53,564 nt of DNA from the IMG/VR virus record IMGVR_UViG_3300032893_000063, positions 1 through 53,564 of that record, one strand, 5' to 3'. The translations under genes were made by a program, and so were the position numbers. This DNA comes from a virus (Duplodnaviria > Caudoviricetes). The notes under the pieces were generated by a model. That model had not been told where the DNA came from and made no database searches. It was given only the letters and a program-made list of their open reading frames with translations. This document shows, one piece after another, positions 4,306-47,689 of the stretch (position 1 is its first letter; each line of letters opens with the position of its first letter).

Positions 4306-4749
4306 ATGGCTAACCCGACAATCGTTTTCTTTGGGCAAATGCCCACCACGATCGTGATGCAGTCGACGAGTCAGTTTGACGGAACTACTCCGCAGACCAT
4401 CAGCTACCCTACGAATCCTGTGATGAGTCCAGCACTTTACGTCTTTGCTCCTCAGGCAGGAGGAGGTCTTTATAACTTTCATGATCTCGTGGGGACTCAG
4501 GAGTCCATTACTATCTTGAGCATTTCTTATAAGGGCGGTGGGAGCTTAGCAGTCAGCCGTTACTACTCCAACGTTGCCGGAACTCCATCAATCCCTGTAG
4601 GAACTATTACGACTGCGGGAGACCTTGTTTTTGAGACCGGAGATCTCACGCTTTCTCCTTACGAAGACCTTACTTTTATCAGCACAGGAGCAACCAACCC
4701 CATCGTAGCTGTCACTGCGATGCTCACCTCAAGCACTTGGGCGAGTTAA
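4306..4749 (+). CDS. Virion structural protein (hypothetical)
   Basis: AGGAG RBS; Thr/Gly/Pro-rich beta composition. Confidence 0.55.
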   Translation: MANPTIVFFGQMPTTIVMQSTSQFDGTTPQTISYPTNPVMSPALYVFAPQAGGGLYNFHDLVGTQESITILSISYKGGGSLAVSRYYSNVAGTPSIPVGTITTAGDLVFETGDLTLSPYEDLTFISTGATNPIVAVTAMLTSSTWAS

Positions 4750-4750
4750 A

Positions 4751-5128
4751 ATGCCATATTACGCTGGAGTAAGCGCCGAACAGTTAGCCAATATTTCGAC
4801 GAACCTGGAACTCCAGCAGAACGGTTCTCCAGCAGACCCCGTTGTTATCGAACAGTCTATTGGGATCGAACCCCTCCCCGTAAAGAGACAAGTTTGGTGG
4901 ATTGTGAGCACGGGCGGTGGATTAATCGTTACCGCGACTCCACAGATTGCCCCGGGAACCTTGCCCAACCAGGAACTCTATCTTGTCGGAACGGACCCCG
5001 TAAACTTCATCACGCTTGAAGACGGAAACGGTCTGAGTCTAAACGGAGAAGTAAGCATTGACGACCAGGAGACTCTTTATCTCATCTGGGATGGCAATAA
5101 CTGGAACGAAATCTCAAGGAGGAGATGA
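4751..5128 (+). CDS. Virion protein sharing its C-terminal module with the next gene
   Basis: QELYLVGTD...GLSLNG...WNEISRR resembles QELVIIGTD...GLSLNG...WVEDSRR in 5125..6564. Confidence 0.6.
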   Translation: MPYYAGVSAEQLANISTNLELQQNGSPADPVVIEQSIGIEPLPVKRQVWWIVSTGGGLIVTATPQIAPGTLPNQELYLVGTDPVNFITLEDGNGLSLNGEVSIDDQETLYLIWDGNNWNEISRRR

Positions 5129-43504: not shown

Positions 43505-45127
43505 ATGAGCGGACTAAGTATCGAAAAAGAGTTCCTAAAGAACGGGGACGTTAAGACTAAACTCAAAGCTCTGAAGACAGATTGGATCTCTAGGCTTGTC
43601 TACCTCGACGGGAAACCCTTTAGCTTTAGCGGTCGCAACTATCTTCTTCCAATCTATAACAATCCCTCATCTCGTAAGCTTTTAATGTGTGGTCGTCAGG
43701 TTGAAAAGACGACTATGCTTGCCAACGAAATCATTATCAGTTCGGTCATTCAGCCCTACTATAAAACCCTCTATGTTAGTCCGAGCCATAGCCAGACCAG
43801 AGCTTTTTCAAACCAGAAGCTCAAGCCATGGATTACGGACTCTCCTATTATTTCGAAATACTTCCAGTCATCCAAGATTTCTCAGCAGGTTTTTGAGCGT
43901 GGATTTACAAACGGGAGTTTGTGTTTTTTAAGATCAGCCTTCCTTACCGCCGACCGTGTTCGTGGTCTTTCCTCCTACATGCTTTGCTTAGATGAGCTCC
44001 AGGACTTACTCACTTCTAATATCCCGGTCATTGAAGAGTGCCTCTCCCACGCACCCAACCCGATTGAAATCATGTCAGGCACCCCTAAGAGCCTAGAGAA
44101 TCCCATCCAGCTTTACTGGGAGGGTTCTAGCCAATGTGAATGGCTTGTTCCGTGTGATCACCACACGCCCGTTTACTACAACTACCTCGATGAGCAGAAT
44201 ATAGGACTTGATGGACCCATATGTAAAAAATGCGGGAATCCCATCGATCCGGCAAGGGGACAGTGGGTTGCCTTTAGCAGTGAAAGAGAAATCATGGGCT
44301 ATAGAATCAGCCAGCTCATGGTTCCCTGGTATCAGGACCCCAGAAAGTGGAAGGAACTCGTCTGGAAAAAAGAGAATCTTTCTAAGGGAAGCCTTTATAA
44401 CGAATGCTTGGGAATCAGCTACGACTCCGCAAGTAAGCCCATTACTCGGGCGGAACTCATCTCCTGTTGCTCAACCAAACATCAGTTCTGCCACCGCCCA
44501 ACTCAGTTTACTAATCGTGTTGAGCTTTTTGCTGGAGTAGATTGGGGTGAAGGAACAGACGGGACCGAGCGAGGGGCCAAGGGAAAGATCAGAAACGCGT
44601 CTTACACAGTTCTCGCCATTGGGCTTTATCTTGATCAAAAGCACTTTCATTATCTCTACTATAGACGCTTTGAAGGCAAGGATGCTCTCCCAGGTAACTG
44701 TGTGAATGAGATTATTCGAATCTGCAAGGACTTCCGCGTGAAGTGTATCGGAGCTGACTGGGGTCATGGGTGGGGAGTAAACGAAAGACTTGAAGAGGCT
44801 TTTGGTACCACGAGAGTGATTAAGTTTCAGCACGTGGGAAACCAGAGACAGCGCAAGAAATACGACGAAATCGGGCACAAGTTTCAGCTAGCTCGAAACG
44901 AAGTCATCACCGATTTCATCATGGATATCAAAGACCACAAGATCGTTTGGCCCGATTGGGAACACGTAAAAAATTATCTTTGCGATCTGGAACATATTTA
45001 CTGCGAATATAAAGAGGCTACTCGACAGATGGTCTATGACCACAAGCCCAGCGAACCCGACGATGCACTTCATGCTTCGATCTACTGCAAAGAAGCGGCG
45101 GATAACTATTACGGGAAGCAGCGATAA
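43505..45127 (+). CDS. terL: Terminase large subunit (GpA-like)
   Basis: GRQVEKTT Walker A, LCLDE Walker B, SGTPK, CDH...CKKC, AGVDWG nuclease, PDDALHA. Confidence 0.9.
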   Translation: MSGLSIEKEFLKNGDVKTKLKALKTDWISRLVYLDGKPFSFSGRNYLLPIYNNPSSRKLLMCGRQVEKTTMLANEIIISSVIQPYYKTLYVSPSHSQTRAFSNQKLKPWITDSPIISKYFQSSKISQQVFERGFTNGSLCFLRSAFLTADRVRGLSSYMLCLDELQDLLTSNIPVIEECLSHAPNPIEIMSGTPKSLENPIQLYWEGSSQCEWLVPCDHHTPVYYNYLDEQNIGLDGPICKKCGNPIDPARGQWVAFSSEREIMGYRISQLMVPWYQDPRKWKELVWKKENLSKGSLYNECLGISYDSASKPITRAELISCCSTKHQFCHRPTQFTNRVELFAGVDWGEGTDGTERGAKGKIRNASYTVLAIGLYLDQKHFHYLYYRRFEGKDALPGNCVNEIIRICKDFRVKCIGADWGHGWGVNERLEEAFGTTRVIKFQHVGNQRQRKKYDEIGHKFQLARNEVITDFIMDIKDHKIVWPDWEHVKNYLCDLEHIYCEYKEATRQMVYDHKPSEPDDALHASIYCKEAADNYYGKQR

Positions 45128-45168
45128 CTAAAAAATTAAAGTGGTGGGGGATCGAGTCCCCCACCACT
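45127..45168 (-). terminator. Intrinsic terminator closing the RAMP-array unit
   Basis: 12-bp stem agtggtggggga/tcccccaccact followed on - by TTAATTTTTTAGTT. Confidence 0.85.
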
Positions 45169-45190
45169 AGGCATTTCAAGAGGTGCATGC

Positions 45191-45619
45191 CTGCCCCTCC
45201 AGTCCCGTCGTCTACAGACCTTTCCCATCTACTGCTGCCTCTCTCCGCCATTCCACTCCAGTACTTGCTTGTGACCGCGTATCCGCTCTCCGCGCTTCCA
45301 ATATCCTCCATTACTGCCTTTCCCGTAATGTCCAACCCTCTCAAGTCATCTGGCGGCCACTCCGCTCCTTTACTGCCCTTCCCTTCCACTTAATTCGCTA
45401 CCGGTACGATGACGTCCGGGCGCTTACGATCCGGTTCTGCCATTCAGGTCCTATCTGATCGGTGCGCTTCCGTTACATTGCGATCCTCTACTGCCGATCC
45501 TGTGACCTCCAAGGGCGTCGTTACCGCTCCGCTCTAAGCGACTCGTCTCCCCTGCTGCCACTCCGGTGGAAGTCCATGCTGGTCCAGTCATGCGCAAACG
45601 TAGCCTATCCTTTTCTGCC
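45191..45619 (-). ncRNA. Putative guide-RNA array: 7 units of GGCAG-HA-NN-(GGA-like triplet+NN)n
   Basis: GGCAG starts at 45619, 45559, 45495, 45441, 45377, 45318, 45239, 45195; spacings 60, 64, 54, 64, 59, 79, 44 (5n+4 except the first); 27 of 72 pentamers begin GGA and 54 of 72 have A at position 3. Confidence 0.85.
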
Positions 45620-45630
45620 ATTTCATTAAT

Positions 45631-45667
45631 TTTGGTGGAGACCCGAGCGAGTCAGGCCCCCACCAAA
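45631..45667 (-). promoter_or_regulatory. Hairpin between the RAMP gene and the array (leader/processing element)
   Basis: tttggtgg/ccaccaaa stem. Confidence 0.55.
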
Positions 45668-45675
45668 TTCAATGA

Positions 45676-46305
45676 CTACCGGCGCTTTACTTCAAACATC
45701 CCGAGATTGCCACTCTTCTCAGGTCTGTACTCGCACAGACCAATCGAGAATCCGGCATTCTCATAGAGGTTCAGAAGTTGCTCCGCTGTGATGATATCGG
45801 GGCGATATTGGACGACAAATGTAATTTCCCACTTATCGAATCGCCCACGGGTTCGGGTAGCGGGCTTCTTGTTTCCAAAAGTCCCCACCCGAACCGTTCT
45901 TCGATCAACCTCTGGACGAGGCCCTCTGATTTCACAAAGACCTCCAGCCTCTTCAATAATGTGAAATGCTCCTTTTGCTTCAGTCATTGAGATCCCCTCA
46001 ATGAATCGGCAAGCAGACACCGCACAGTTCTTGATACCTGAAGCAGGAACTCCATATGAGTTTCTCTTCCCCGGCATTCGGTAAAGAGAGTCTTCAAATT
46101 CCTGTTCGACGGTCTTTGGGATTTTCTTTCCCTTGGCCACCTTTCGGTAACTGTCCTCGATCTCCTGCCTTGATTTCTCATCAAAGCGGTTAACGAGAAG
46201 AGGAGTGACCCCTCGAATGGTTATTTTTGCCAACTTTTTGTTGATTGGCGGAATAACGATTGTTTTTGACTCTTCCTTTTTGCTTTCCTGCTTTTTTCCT
46301 TTCAT
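45676..46305 (-). CDS. Cas7/RAMP-like RNA-binding protein
   Basis: ITIRGVTPLLVN first strand, VPASGIKNC helix start, WEITFVVQY strand, C-terminal Gly loop AGFSIGLCEYRPEKSGNLGMFEV. Confidence 0.75.
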   Translation of the reverse strand: MKGKKQESKKEESKTIVIPPINKKLAKITIRGVTPLLVNRFDEKSRQEIEDSYRKVAKGKKIPKTVEQEFEDSLYRMPGKRNSYGVPASGIKNCAVSACRFIEGISMTEAKGAFHIIEEAGGLCEIRGPRPEVDRRTVRVGTFGNKKPATRTRGRFDKWEITFVVQYRPDIITAEQLLNLYENAGFSIGLCEYRPEKSGNLGMFEVKRR

Positions 46306-46771
46306 ACCGTTTTTGCACCTCTTGTATTGCTTTGAAAACCGGTCTTAATTCCTTGACCTGCTCAAAGCGTTCATATCGAAGCTTCCAGCTTCGAAGACCT
46401 TGAATTGCTTCCTCAAGAACCTGGCTCCACAAATCTTTATCTTTGTAAGCTATGCTCGTATCTACATAAGTCCTTGTTTTACTAGTTCCCACGTAGACGC
46501 TTACAGACTTAGGAACATCCCTGACCCCGTTGACTTCGACAAATAGACACTGGATCAGTTTCCTTGCTTGTTGGAGCCTATAGAGTTCTGCAGCCCTGGA
46601 ATCGTCCCATTCAAAGTATTTGTGGATAGGTGAGTTTCCAGGTCTTGCTGCATCAACAATTTCTTTAGGAGTATAAACGCCGTCTGGAAATCGCCGATCT
46701 AAAAAGGCTCCGATGATTTTAGCGTCCCGGTTATTGAACGTAGTACCAGGACGTGCTGTATAATGTTTCAC
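46190..46771 (-). CDS. Conserved phage protein (FEWDD motif), partner of the RAMP gene
   Basis: TPKEIVDAARP..SPIHKYFEWDDSRAAELYRLQQARKLI; AAGGAG RBS with GTG start. Confidence 0.7.
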   Translation of the reverse strand: MKHYTARPGTTFNNRDAKIIGAFLDRRFPDGVYTPKEIVDAARPGNSPIHKYFEWDDSRAAELYRLQQARKLIQCLFVEVNGVRDVPKSVSVYVGTSKTRTYVDTSIAYKDKDLWSQVLEEAIQGLRSWKLRYERFEQVKELRPVFKAIQEVQKRYERKKAGKQKGRVKNNRYSANQQKVGKNNHSRGHSSSR

Positions 46772-46825: not shown

Positions 46826-47689
46826 TTAGTTCACCACAATCGACACAGGCGCAGTAAGCGTCGTGGGGATTGAGGCTGGCGCAGTATACGCCGATATCGA
46901 AAGGTACTGGGCCGGAGCCTGGTTACCTACCGGTATCGAAGTACAGGTGCCATTCATAGCGCGATAGGATGCCGCAGTCAGGGTCTGGATCGTATTCGTC
47001 GTACGATACACACCACCAGCCGTGAACTGGAAAGTCACATTTGCTGGCGCTTGCATCGCAGAAACGTAAGCCGATCCTGTGCAGGTGGACGAGGTGAAAT
47101 AAGTTTGCACCAGATTCCCACCCAGAGTCATGTTCGTATAAGTCACCGCAACTTGATTGGTCGTGTCCCATACCACATAAGTATAGGTTCCAACGTTTTG
47201 GTTATTATACGTACCGTTCCCGTTCCAAGCGCTTTGCAGCAAGCCATTACCCACCTCTACGCCGTTCGCATAGAGCGAGATTGAGCTTGTTGCAGGAGTT
47301 CCTGGGTTACCCTGAGGACCTTGCGGACCTTGTGGGCCTTGGGAACCTTGAGCACCTGCGACGCCTTGAGATCCTTGAGGACCTTGAGCGCCTGTTGCTC
47401 CGACAGCACCGGTAGCGCCCACAGCACCATTGACACCATTTGTGCCGTTGGTTCCGTTTGCGCCGTTGGCAATAAACGCACCACTCCCGTCGCCGCAGGA
47501 AATTTGAGCACCTCCTGTAGCGGCAGCAGCAGCAGAGCATCCATTGGTTTGCACAAGCATCTTAGTGGGCGAACTCACAGTAGAAGTGCTCACCGAACTC
47601 GTGCTTTGGATATCGGACGAACTATTGCAGCCAGTCGCAGCAACGAACATCAGCGTAAGGGCAGACACCATCAACATAGCGTTCTTCAT
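46826..47689 (-). CDS. Collagen-repeat lipoprotein
   Basis: Lipobox AATG-C; about 20 Gly-X-Y triplets; GGAGG RBS. Confidence 0.8.
   Translation of the reverse strand: MKNAMLMVSALTLMFVAATGCNSSSDIQSTSSVSTSTVSSPTKMLVQTNGCSAAAAATGGAQISCGDGSGAFIANGANGTNGTNGVNGAVGATGAVGATGAQGPQGSQGVAGAQGSQGPQGPQGPQGNPGTPATSSISLYANGVEVGNGLLQSAWNGNGTYNNQNVGTYTYVVWDTTNQVAVTYTNMTLGGNLVQTYFTSSTCTGSAYVSAMQAPANVTFQFTAGGVYRTTNTIQTLTAASYRAMNGTCTSIPVGNQAPAQYLSISAYTAPASIPTTLTAPVSIVVN

What the first reader, a model, noticed from the sequence alone, without database searches (positions are those of the whole stretch)
45442..45495. Guide unit 3 decodes (opposite strand) to a Walker B motif GYDVLVIDS
Seen: read on the + strand, the dinucleotides are AT,GG,TA,GA,GT,CT,GT,AT,GA,TC = (I/M)-G-Y-(D/E)-V-L-V-(I/M)-(D/E)-S. 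Known: GYDxhhIDS is the Walker B of phage Sak4/AAA_24 and RecA-like ATPases. Inference: a second, independent conserved-motif target. Its orientation is opposite to unit 7, which argues for dsDNA rather than mRNA targets.
Basis: partly seen in the sequence, partly recalled or inferred. Interest (0 to 1): 0.88.

Follow-up and report, generated by a model that had tools for sequence, protein, structure and literature searches.

The report
VIPR guide RNA aimed at ATPase motif
This stretch is one guide in a phage-borne VIPR array, a recently described RNA-guided gene-silencing system, and its variable bases spell the codons of the ATP-hydrolysis (Walker B) motif of a widespread phage ATPase family, so it probably serves to shut down rival phages.

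Summary
Window 45442-45495 is ten 5-nt units plus TGCC, and the first two bases of each unit read AT GG TA GA GT CT GT AT GA TC.

It is unit 3 of a seven-guide array (45196-45619, minus strand). The array lies just downstream of a 209-aa RAMP protein, which matches only the SUSP1 Vipr protein in the PDB (profile E = 2.8e-8). The locus is therefore a VIPR system, described in 2026 preprints: (GGY/NN)n guide RNAs whose NN bases pair with DNA and skip every third base. Here the repeat is GGA/NN.

- **Full 20-base pattern:** 0 hits in IMG/VR and 2 in GTDB genomes. One is MGYDVLVIDS in an AAA_24 gene; the other is a RuvA coincidence.
- **8-codon core:** 42 IMG/VR sites, 34 of them in frame at that motif in AAA_24-like genes. 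A reversed control gave 46 sites, none in an open frame.
- **Unit 7:** it decodes on the opposite strand to the serine-recombinase motif VWKLDRLG.

This is a new member of a known kind. Expression and the true natural target remain untested.

The parts
45676..46305 (-). vipr gene: 209-aa RAMP-family protein (P0121), the predicted vrRNA-binding filament subunit
   Evidence: It matches phrog_4652. It has 165 unnamed homologues. A profile of 36 homologues hits only PDB 36pp 'SUSP1 Vipr protein', E = 2.8e-8, across the thumb and G-loop. The AF2 model has pLDDT 83. Its best Foldseek matches are Csm3/Cas7 RAMPs, E = 7e-6 and weaker.
46190..46771 (-). Candidate accessory gene (vap?), 193 aa (P0243). 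Its last 116 nt overlap the start of vipr.
   Evidence: It matches phrog_15946, function unknown, and has no Pfam match. A visibly similar ORF (shared ...FPDG...HKYF[ED]WDD...AAE...QA[RQ]...IQ...) lies directly upstream of the vipr homologue in L023, at 4433-4963. The role is inferred from position only.
45633..45667 (-). Hairpin between the vipr stop codon and the first guide unit
   Evidence: It is read directly. It shares the CCCCCACCA core with the terminator hairpin (family D6). Its function was not tested.
45196..45619 (-). vrRNA array: seven abutting guide units, each GGCA followed by 8-15 units of form (GGA-like triplet + NN). Units start at 45619, 45559, 45495, 45441, 45377, 45318 and 45239.
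   Evidence: Searches give the parse. Over 70 five-base units, position 1 is G in 59%, position 2 is G in 70%, position 3 is A in 77%, and positions 4-5 are near uniform. The parser was tuned to GGA. Six of the seven unit lengths are 5n+4, so GGCAG and the next unit share one G.
45442..45495 (-). Guide unit 3, the finding. RNA 5'-GGCA gtaGA ggaTC gcaAT gtaAC ggaAG cgcAC cgaTC agaTA ggaCC tgaAT-3'. The complementary (target) strand reads ATx GGx TAx GAx GTx CTx GTx ATx GAx TCx.
45196..45239 (-). Guide unit 7. Its NN bases on the RNA-sense strand read GTx TGx AAx CTx GAx CGx CTx GGx = V-[W/C]-[K/N]-L-[D/E]-R-L-G.
   Evidence: 120 sites read VWKLDRLG and 116 are in frame in ORFs of at least 150 codons.
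45130..45195 (-). 3' end of the transcript: a last GGCAG, then a non-repeat tail and an intrinsic terminator (stem 45168-45140, then TTAATTTTTT)
   Evidence: The terminator was called on the minus strand only. The tail has no five-base register.

Best explanation
The region is one guide (unit 3) of a VIPR (Viral Interference Programmable Repeat) array carried by an uncultured wetland phage. The record is estimated 34% complete, and related contigs are 160-186 kb.

The array is transcribed on the minus strand together with or just after vipr, and ends at the terminator at 45140-45168. By analogy with the SUSP1 system, one Vipr protomer binds each 5-nt unit. It sequesters the GGA-like triplet and presents the two variable bases. 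These pair with a DNA strand while every third target base is skipped, forming an R-loop-like filament that blocks transcription.

For unit 3, the ten NN pairs are complementary to codon positions 1-2 of [I/M]-G-Y-[D/E]-V-L-V-[I/M]-[D/E]-S. This is the Walker B strand of AAA_24 (Sak4-related, RecA-fold) ATPases found in the replication and recombination modules of many phages and proviruses. The guide would therefore silence that gene in a competing phage or other mobile element, and synonymous mutations would not let the target escape.

**Shown here:** the sequence anatomy; Vipr homology and RAMP fold; minus-strand terminator; in-frame concentration of matches at the AAA_24 motif; opposite-strand decoding of unit 7.

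**Inferred from the literature:** expression, processing, filament formation, the 1-nt skip rule for this GGA/NN subtype, silencing, and which element is the true target.
For: **The locus is a VIPR system.**
- The profile of the adjacent protein hits only SUSP1 Vipr in the PDB, E = 2.8e-8. E192-Y193-R194 align with SUSP1 residues D-W-R, which I take to be the G-loop residues D177-W178-R179 named in paper 2.
- The fold is RAMP/Cas7-like.
- A 5-nt repeat array lies directly 3' of the gene on the same strand.
- A homologous gene plus GGA/NN array is present in L023.
- The locus sits on a viral record next to TerL.

**The guide matches the AAA_24 Walker B motif.**
- 34 of 42 exact 16-base sites lie in AAA_24-like genes at the same motif, falling in 34 sequence-distinct flank clusters.
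- 25 of the 33 sites with the family context reach 18/20 NN matches and 4 reach 19/20.
- A reversed control pattern gave 0 of 46 sites in an open frame of at least 150 codons.
- A 20/20 match lies in an AAA_24 gene beside a DnaB-like gene in a bacterial MAG.
- In 150 family representatives (47-59% identical to that protein) the aligned segment has consensus AGYDVL[IV]IDS. The guide is compatible with at least 8 of 10 residues in 76 of the 150.
- 500 shuffled dinucleotide orders never reached 8/10 in any protein. Their mean best window was 4.08, against 7.33 for the real guide.

**The array fits published VIPR behaviour.**
- Unit 7 decodes to VWKLDRLG in 120 of 121 sites.
- Published VIPR guides are wobble-aligned, hit both strands and target recombinase active sites.
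- There is no self-match in the window at up to 3 mismatches, and no AAA_24 gene in the window.
Against: - No IMG/VR record matches all 20 bases.
- The first guide dinucleotide (AT) disagrees with the family consensus Ala in 100 of 150 representatives, and none of the 150 has I or M there.
- The raw number of 16-base hits (42) is no higher than for the reversed control (46). Only the concentration in one family is informative.
- One of the two perfect genome hits is an unrelated RuvA gene. By my own estimate, about one chance hit is expected in 596 Gb, so perfect matches at that scale can be chance.
- The other guides do not converge on the same records. Unit 7 was found in 0 of 34 AAA_24-bearing records. 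Units 2 and 4 were found in 0 of 5. AAA_24 was found in 0 of 47 records carrying a unit-7 site. A 16-base core of unit 4 gave only 4 scattered hits.
- Only 3 of the 10 triplets in unit 3 are exact GGA. In SUSP1, perturbing the GGY motifs abolished silencing.
- The 150 representatives were gathered with a protein that the guide pattern itself had picked.
Confidence: 0.75

Rival explanations
1. Unit 3 is a real VIPR guide, but the Walker B reading is a coincidence. Its true target is some other sequence in an unsampled competitor, and AAA_24 genes are not its natural target.
For: There is no 20/20 match in IMG/VR. An in-frame 20/20 match exists in an unrelated RuvA gene. The first codon mismatches the family consensus. 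The other guides do not converge on AAA_24-bearing records.
Against: 34 of 42 exact core sites fall on one motif of one family, in 34 distinct sequence contexts, against 0 of 46 control sites in an open frame. None of 500 shuffled guide orders reached 8/10 in any of the 150 family members, while the real guide did in 76. A second guide in the same array also spells a catalytic-domain motif.
Confidence: 0.12
2. The array is a decaying or inactive relic. The triplets have drifted from the consensus that Vipr needs, so unit 3 no longer assembles a filament.
For: Only about one third of the triplets in the window array are exact GGA (3 of 10 in unit 3). Position frequencies are G 59%, G 70%, A 77%, against G 89%, G 87%, A 74% in L023. 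In SUSP1, perturbing GGY abolished silencing.
Against: Two units with equally degenerate triplets still spell exact conserved protein motifs in the correct register, which argues for continuing selection on the NN positions. The vipr ORF is intact and its conserved residues are kept. Paper 1 notes frequent internal degeneracy in working vrRNAs. Array segments are letter-identical in contigs of two other runs.
Confidence: 0.08
3. Unit 3 acts as an antisense RNA on the ATPase mRNA rather than on DNA.
For: The unit 3 RNA is complementary to the coding strand, so it could pair with the mRNA. SUSP1 VIPR can accommodate an RNA target strand.
Against: Unit 7 has the same sense as its coding strand and cannot pair with mRNA. 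In SUSP1, RNA targets gave mostly incomplete filaments and completion needed a DNA third strand. Silencing also worked on either DNA strand.
Confidence: 0.04
4. The array is a TRAP-like RNA that binds a protein ring or acts as a sponge. The conserved triplets would be the only functional part and the dinucleotides would be meaningless spacers. This was my own first guess.
For: The 5-nt period with a conserved triplet and 2-nt spacers resembles the (G/U)AG-NN sites of TRAP (recalled, not from a call). The RNA strand is depleted in C (C is 37% of the + strand, so G is 37% and C 19% on the RNA strand).
Against: The adjacent protein is a Vipr/RAMP homologue, not a TRAP-like one. The 'spacers' of two units spell conserved protein motifs. 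Shuffled spacer orders do not.
Confidence: 0.01

Closest known systems
Type II VIPR of Escherichia phage SUSP1 and the Pseudomonas fulva prophage (bioRxiv 10.64898/2026.04.26.720920 and 10.64898/2026.04.26.720927)
   Same: A small RAMP protein homologous to Vipr lies next to an array of 5-nt repeats made of a fixed triplet plus a variable NN. The system is virus-encoded. Each guide has 8-15 repeats, against 9-16 published. Decoded targets are wobble-aligned in protein-coding genes on either strand. A second small gene lies upstream of vipr.
   Different: The fixed triplet is GGA-like, with a purine at position 3, where SUSP1 has a pocket described as excluding purines. There is no long invariant 3' tail or pseudoknot between guides: units abut with a shared G at GGCAG. 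The proteins are related only at profile level. The candidate accessory protein has no recognised DNA-binding domain. Nothing here has been tested experimentally.
'Staggered' VIPR arrays and non-canonical repeat types (paper 1, legend of fig. S18 and Methods: NNNGG, YNNNG, NNNNG; bioRxiv 10.64898/2026.10.21.760802: GAC/NN, CAC/NN, WGT/NN, TGH/NN)
   Same: Unit lengths of 5n+4 make the end of one guide (GGCAG) overlap the start of the next by 1 nt, as that legend describes. GGA/NN can be written as ANNGG, which falls under NNNGG.
   Different: I could read only legends and text, not the figures or supplements. I therefore cannot say whether this exact subtype, its clade or its type number is already catalogued. 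GGA/NN is not named in the passages I read.
SUSP1 vrRNA4 targeting the active-site strand of a satellite serine recombinase (bioRxiv 10.64898/2026.10.15.759431; passages only)
   Same: [quoted passage not shown] Escape therefore needs non-synonymous change in an essential motif. Unit 7 here also targets a serine-recombinase motif.
   Different: The target class of unit 3 is a Walker B strand of an AAA_24 ATPase. The footprint is 10 codons rather than 6. The competitor element is unknown.
Class 1 CRISPR Cas7 backbone (Csm3, Cmr4, Cas7)
   Same: The best structural matches of the protein model are Cas7-family RAMPs. One protomer binds per periodic RNA segment, with bases flipped out by a thumb.
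   Different: The period is 5 nt with 2 paired bases, rather than 6 nt with 5 paired bases. No CRISPR repeats, cas genes or adaptation genes were seen near the locus.

Membership tests
VIPR system | Vipr protein: a minimal RAMP (RRM core, G-loop, thumb) homologous to described Viprs | tested here: met
   The profile of 36 homologues hits only PDB 36pp 'SUSP1 Vipr protein', E = 2.8e-8, over the thumb and G-loop. The single-sequence hit has E = 0.022. The AF2 model (pLDDT 83) best matches Csm3/Cas7 RAMPs. The Foldseek PDB copy ends 2026-04-08 and lists no Vipr entry.
VIPR system | Array of 5-nt repeats beside vipr, with a conserved triplet alternating with hypervariable NN (GGY/NN or a related consensus) | tested here: met
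   There is a 5-nt periodicity unique in the window. Over 70 five-base units the profile is G 59%, G 70%, A 77%, N, N (the parser favoured GGA). The array is on the same strand as vipr and 3' of it. The variant triplet is GGA, not GGY.
VIPR system | vrRNAs are expressed, processed and co-purify with Vipr | not testable with these tools
   No RNA run is listed for this sequence. Strand assignment rests on the minus-strand terminator and on the orientation of flanking genes in L005 and L023.
VIPR system | 1-nt skip rule: the NN bases match targets as NNx, with skips at codon wobble positions, on either strand | tested here: met
   Unit 3: 34 of 42 core sites lie in frame in AAA_24-like genes. 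Unit 7: 116 of 121 sites are in frame. The two decode on opposite strands. Only the 1-nt skip was tried; skips of 0, 2 and 3 nt were not compared.
VIPR system | Accessory vap gene in the locus | tested here: inconclusive
   The ORF at 46190-46771 is conserved upstream of the L023 vipr homologue. It matches only phrog_15946, function unknown, and has no Pfam domain. I could not compare it with vap1-6.
VIPR system | No self-targeting by its own guides | tested here: met
   The unit 3 pattern has 0 matches in the window at up to 3 mismatches, and the window has no AAA_24 gene. The record is only 34% complete. The other units were not tested against the window.
AAA_24 (PF13479) Walker B as the decoded target | The matched segment is the hydrophobic strand ending in Asp, downstream of Walker A, in proteins that pass the Pfam AAA_24 threshold | tested here: met
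   9 of 10 hit ORFs, plus the MAG protein, score 65-110 bits against the cut-off of 27. In P0242, Walker A (GPSKTGKT) is at residues 18-25 and MGYDVLVIDS at 81-90. D is invariant and S is present in 149 of 150 representatives. Calling this strand 'Walker B' rests on general knowledge of RecA-fold ATPases.
Sak4 (phrog_124, Sak4-like ssDNA annealing protein) | Best family assignment is Sak4-like | tested here: not met
   The best PHROG for all 4 proteins tested is phrog_1366, function unknown (E = 1e-76 to 1e-89). phrog_124 is a weaker second hit in 3 of the 4 (E = 1e-11 to 1e-13). These proteins are relatives of Sak4, not Sak4 proper.
CRISPR array or TIGR-Tas array | Repeat-spacer units of about 60-79 nt with cas genes, or 18-nt-period TIGR units with a Nop-domain Tas protein | tested here: not met
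   The period is 5 nt. Rfam gave nothing above threshold. Neighbouring ORFs show no Cas or Tas families.
TRAP-type (G/U)AG-NN protein-binding RNA | A TRAP-like ring protein, with spacers carrying no information | tested here: not met
   The adjacent protein is a RAMP/Vipr homologue. The spacer dinucleotides spell conserved motifs, while shuffled orders do not.

The most novel reading that the evidence does not exclude
The array may be a panel of guides directed at protein motifs. Each vrRNA would be tuned to the consensus codons of an active-site motif shared by a whole protein family: the AAA_24 Walker B for unit 3 and the serine-recombinase VWKLDRLG strand for unit 7. One guide could then silence that gene in many unrelated competitors at once, rather than in one particular rival.

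This would be nucleic-acid immunity that recognises protein-level conservation across thousands of gene clusters (7,645 representative clusters for this ATPase family). It would be carried by a GGA/NN Vipr subtype whose position-3 pocket must differ from that of SUSP1.
Probability: 0.3. Interest if true: 0.65.

Novelty: new member of a known kind. Interest (0 to 1): 0.4.

Why it matters
VIPR systems were described only in 2026 and have been characterised in two closely related type II systems. This locus differs in four respects:
- It sits in an uncultured wetland phage.
- It has a purine-containing GGA/NN repeat.
- Its guides abut with no tail between them.
- At least two guides can be decoded without any knowledge of the host, because they spell catalytic motifs of mobile-element proteins: an AAA_24 ATPase Walker B and a serine recombinase.

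This supports the published idea that skipping wobble bases lets a guide hold on to amino-acid-determining positions. It extends the known target classes beyond recombinases and regulators. It also suggests a practical method: decoding NN strings into peptides can name the targets of orphan VIPR arrays from metagenomes.

It does not change the known mechanism.

Tried and rejected
**Searches that found nothing useful**
- Rfam (E up to 10) over 44900-45900 gave only a 14-bit chance hit.
- blastn of 43505-46305 against GenBank phages found no match.
- TerL as a single query in IMG/VR found no relatives. An alignment query was needed.

**Ideas dropped**
- My first idea was a TRAP-like protein-binding RNA with meaningless spacers. 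I dropped it once the neighbouring protein matched Vipr.
- The two closest TerL relatives (89-91% identity, L083 and L084) have no array after TerL, so they gave no comparison of NN turnover.

**Convergence of several guides on one element: none found**
- Unit 7 at up to 2 mismatches: 0 of 34 AAA_24-bearing records.
- Units 2 and 4 at up to 3 mismatches: 0 of 5 records, including the MAG with the perfect unit-3 site.
- Unit 7 in that MAG: 5 sites against 5 for the reversed control. The best site is on another contig and not in recombinase context.
- AAA_24 in records with a unit-7 site: 0 of 47.
- A 16-base core of unit 4: 4 scattered IMG/VR hits with no common family.
- Units 1, 5 and 6 were decoded but not searched.

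**Sequencing runs**
- No RNA holder is listed.
- Contigs of three wetland DNA runs cover parts of the array with no differences. They gave no information on guide variation or RNA ends.

**Not done**
- A mismatch-tolerant (at least 80% NN) search of public collections, as in the paper, was not possible because collection scans are exact-match only.
- Skip lengths of 0, 2 and 3 nt were not compared.
- Supplementary data of the papers (for example the lists of natural targets) could not be seen. They may already list AAA_24 targets or this subtype.

Full report
**1. The observation**

Window 45442-45495 on the + strand reads ATTCA GGTCC TATCT GATCG GTGCG CTTCC GTTAC ATTGC GATCC TCTAC TGCC. Read as codon positions 1-2 they give [I/M]-G-[Y/stop]-[D/E]-V-L-V-[I/M]-[D/E]-S.

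The segment lies in a non-coding stretch (about 45130-45675) between a GpA-type large terminase gene (43505-45127, +) and a convergent 209-codon ORF (45676-46305, -).

The 5-nt period is not an impression:
- Base autocorrelation over 45170-45630 is 0.35-0.375 at lags 5, 10, 15 and 20, against 0.20-0.28 at most other lags.
- The top nine of all 300-nt windows scored lie at 45051-45551.

**2. What the region is**

I first thought of a TRAP-like protein-binding RNA with meaningless spacers. Three lines of evidence replaced that idea.

*Recurrence in relatives.* Among 80 IMG/VR loci encoding TerL relatives, eight have the same kind of 5-nt periodic array (L005, L006, L007, L021, L022, L023, L024, L029).
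- In the loci where flanks are present, the array always abuts the 3' end of a minus-strand gene. It is followed by a hairpin plus T-run oriented for the minus strand.
- In the window, the terminator scan calls a 12-bp stem plus TTAATTTTTT on the minus strand at 45168-45140.
- The RNA is therefore the minus strand. On that strand the units read GGA-like triplet + NN. Over 70 five-base units, position 1 is G in 59%, position 2 is G in 70%, position 3 is A in 77%, and positions 4-5 are near uniform. L023 gives G 89%, G 87%, A 74% (the parser was tuned to GGA).

*The adjacent protein.* P0121 has no Pfam match but belongs to phrog_4652 and has 165 unnamed homologues.
- A profile of 36 of them hits a single PDB sequence, 36pp 'SUSP1 Vipr protein', at E = 2.8e-8 across the thumb and G-loop. 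The single-sequence hit has E = 0.022.
- An AlphaFold2 model (pLDDT 83) finds Csm3/Cas7 RAMPs as its best structural matches.

*The literature.* The PDB name led to three 2026 preprints.
- Paper 1 is 10.64898/2026.04.26.720920. I read the Results and Methods sections 20, 26 and 27, plus passages.
- Paper 2 is 10.64898/2026.04.26.720927. I read part 1 of 2 of the Results.
- Together they describe VIPR systems. A minimal RAMP, Vipr, polymerises on vrRNAs made of alternating GGY/NN units. The NN bases pair with a DNA strand while every third target base is skipped. The skips fall mostly on codon wobble positions, targets lie on either strand, and the outcome is transcriptional silencing of competing phages and satellites.
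- Alternative repeats (NNNGG, YNNNG, NNNNG) and 'staggered' arrays, whose guides overlap by 1 nt, are also mentioned.

The window locus fits this description. It has vipr (45676-46305), a conserved upstream ORF of unknown function (46190-46771), and seven guide units. Six of the seven unit lengths are 5n+4, so that GGCAG and the next unit share one G.

**3. Testing the specific claim for unit 3**

*The full 20-base pattern.*
- It has no match in IMG/VR.
- It has none in the window at up to 3 mismatches.
- It has two matches in 596 Gb of GTDB genomes, where by my own estimate about one chance match is expected.
- One hit is in frame as MGYDVLVIDS in a 320-aa protein of a Candidatus Obscuribacterales MAG. 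That protein is AAA_24 (PF13479, E = 1.9e-19), with Walker A GPSKTGKT at residues 18-25 and the motif at residues 81-90. It lies three genes from a DnaB-like helicase.
- The other hit is IGYEVLVIDS in a RuvA gene, which is a coincidence.

*The 8-codon core (16 fixed bases).*
- It has 42 sites in IMG/VR.
- 33 have the context Y[D/E]VLVIDS..H.W. A 34th is AAA_24 by Pfam.
- 9 of 10 ORFs tested pass the AAA_24 threshold.
- The 42 sites fall in 34 different flank clusters.
- Among the 33 family sites, the match to all 20 guide bases is 18 in 25 sites, 19 in 4 and 16 in 4.

*The control.* The same pattern read backwards gave 46 sites, so the raw count means nothing. None of the 46 lies in an open frame of at least 150 codons in the decoded register.

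*The protein family.*
- The MAG protein has 7,645 representative clusters as relatives.
- In the best 150 (47-59% identical), the aligned segment has consensus AGYDVL[IV]IDS.
- The guide is compatible with at least 8 of 10 residues in 76 of them, and with 9 in 18.
- 500 shuffled orders of the same dinucleotides never reached 8/10 in any protein. Their mean best window was 4.08 (sd 0.21), against 7.33 for the real guide.
- These representatives were gathered with a protein that the guide itself had selected, so this test is conditional on the family.

*Family name.* The best PHROG is phrog_1366 (unknown function). 'Sak4-like ssDNA annealing protein' (phrog_124) is a weaker second hit in 3 of 4 proteins. 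AAA_24 is therefore exact and Sak4 approximate.

**4. Orientation and unit 7**

Decoding all units shows that unit 7 (45239-45196) reads V-[W/C]-[K/N]-L-[D/E]-R-L-G on the RNA-sense strand.
- 120 of 121 sites read VWKLDRLG, and 116 are in frame in ORFs of at least 150 codons, with contexts such as GDTLVVWKLDRLGRS.
- I recognise this as the serine-recombinase (resolvase) motif from general knowledge. I did not run Pfam on these ORFs.

Unit 3 decodes on the strand complementary to the RNA. That fits DNA rather than mRNA targeting, and it fits the published data.

Paper 3 (10.64898/2026.10.15.759431, passages only) shows a SUSP1 guide aimed at the active-site strand of a satellite recombinase. 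It argues that skipping wobble bases blocks escape by synonymous mutation.

**5. What remains open or speaks against**

- No RNA data exist for this sequence.
- Only 3 of the 10 triplets in unit 3 are exact GGA, and the window array is more degenerate than that of L023.
- The first guide dinucleotide, AT, disagrees with the family consensus Ala. The real target may therefore be a subgroup with I or M there, like the MAG gene.
- I found no element hit by several guides:
  - unit 7 in 0 of 34 AAA_24 records;
  - units 2 and 4 in 0 of 5;
  - AAA_24 in 0 of 47 records with a unit-7 site;
  - a unit-4 core gave 4 unrelated hits.
- The natural competitor is thus unidentified.
- The record is 34% complete, so absence of self-targets is provisional.

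**6. Comparison and novelty**

The system works like, and by the tests above is a member of, the VIPR family. It differs from the characterised type II systems in three ways:
- its GGA/NN repeat, where SUSP1 has a pocket at position 3 said to exclude purines;
- its abutting guides, which have no tail;
- a protein that is only profile-level similar.

Paper 1 and paper 4 (10.64898/2026.10.21.760802, passages only) already report non-canonical repeats and staggered arrays. I could not see figures or supplements, so this subtype may already be catalogued.

'Walker' has no occurrence in papers 1 and 3, and 'ATPase' and 'Sak4' none in paper 3. Papers 2 and 4 were not searched for these words, and the target lists are in supplements. 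An AAA_24 Walker B target therefore appears new in print, but only tentatively.

**Verdict:** This is a new member of a known kind, of moderate interest.

Noticed in passing
L029:1560-2545; L007:5620-6545; L024:6100-7350; L005:6660-6930 (minus-strand RNA): There is a second kind of 5-nt array, up to about 1 kb long, in TerL-related phages. 'AC' (or [A/G]C) recurs every 5 nt, occasionally 6, on the + strand, which is GU-NNN on the RNA strand, and that RNA strand is depleted in C (9-19%). Each array abuts a 240-304-aa minus-strand protein ending in GLGQWRN[AS]GxGxF. It may be the YNNNG or WGT/NN type of VIPR. Protein similarity to Vipr is weak (phrog_4652 E = 0.0046; PDB 36pp E = 1.1).
   Followed up: partly
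L083:2020-2900; L084:1471-2400: The two closest TerL relatives (89-91% identity) have no array and no vipr after TerL. They carry unrelated genes there. The vipr-array module therefore sits in a variable spot downstream of the terminase gene.
   Followed up: partly
window 45196-45239: Guide unit 7 spells VWKLDRLG. 120 of 121 IMG/VR sites read this and 116 are in frame. Most of the 47 records later examined are classed as proviruses.
   Followed up: yes
window 46190-46305: The candidate accessory ORF (46190-46771) overlaps the start of vipr by 116 nt. Its last 50 or so residues lie beyond the phrog_15946 match. In L023 the two genes do not overlap.
   Followed up: no
L294:7104-7691: A RuvA gene of an Acutalibacteraceae genome contains a perfect 20/20 in-frame match (IGYEVLVIDS) to the unit-3 pattern. 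Perfect NNx matches in very large collections can therefore be chance.
   Followed up: yes
window 45354-45794: Contigs from two other wetland metagenome runs (X2, X3) carry parts of the array and of vipr with no differences, including all of unit 3. All three runs date from 2019 and may be one campaign.
   Followed up: partly
window 46826-47689 and 47309-47393: A collagen-repeat, tail-fibre-like ORF lies just beyond the VIPR module. It contains a 9-nt / 27-nt tandem repeat.
   Followed up: no
window 45141-45169 and 45633-45667: The two hairpins that bracket the array share the core CCCCCACCA / GGTGG (family D6). Only the distal one has a T-run. The proximal one might be a processing or attenuation element.
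   Followed up: no
window 45560-45619, 45496-45559, 45378-45441, 45319-45377, 45240-45318: Units 1, 2, 4, 5 and 6 decode to peptide-like strings, for example unit 4 as L-L-T-[I/M]-L-G-[D/E]-R-G-L-[D/E]-G. No target family was found for unit 4. Unit 2 was tried only against 5 records. Units 1, 5 and 6 were not searched.
   Followed up: partly
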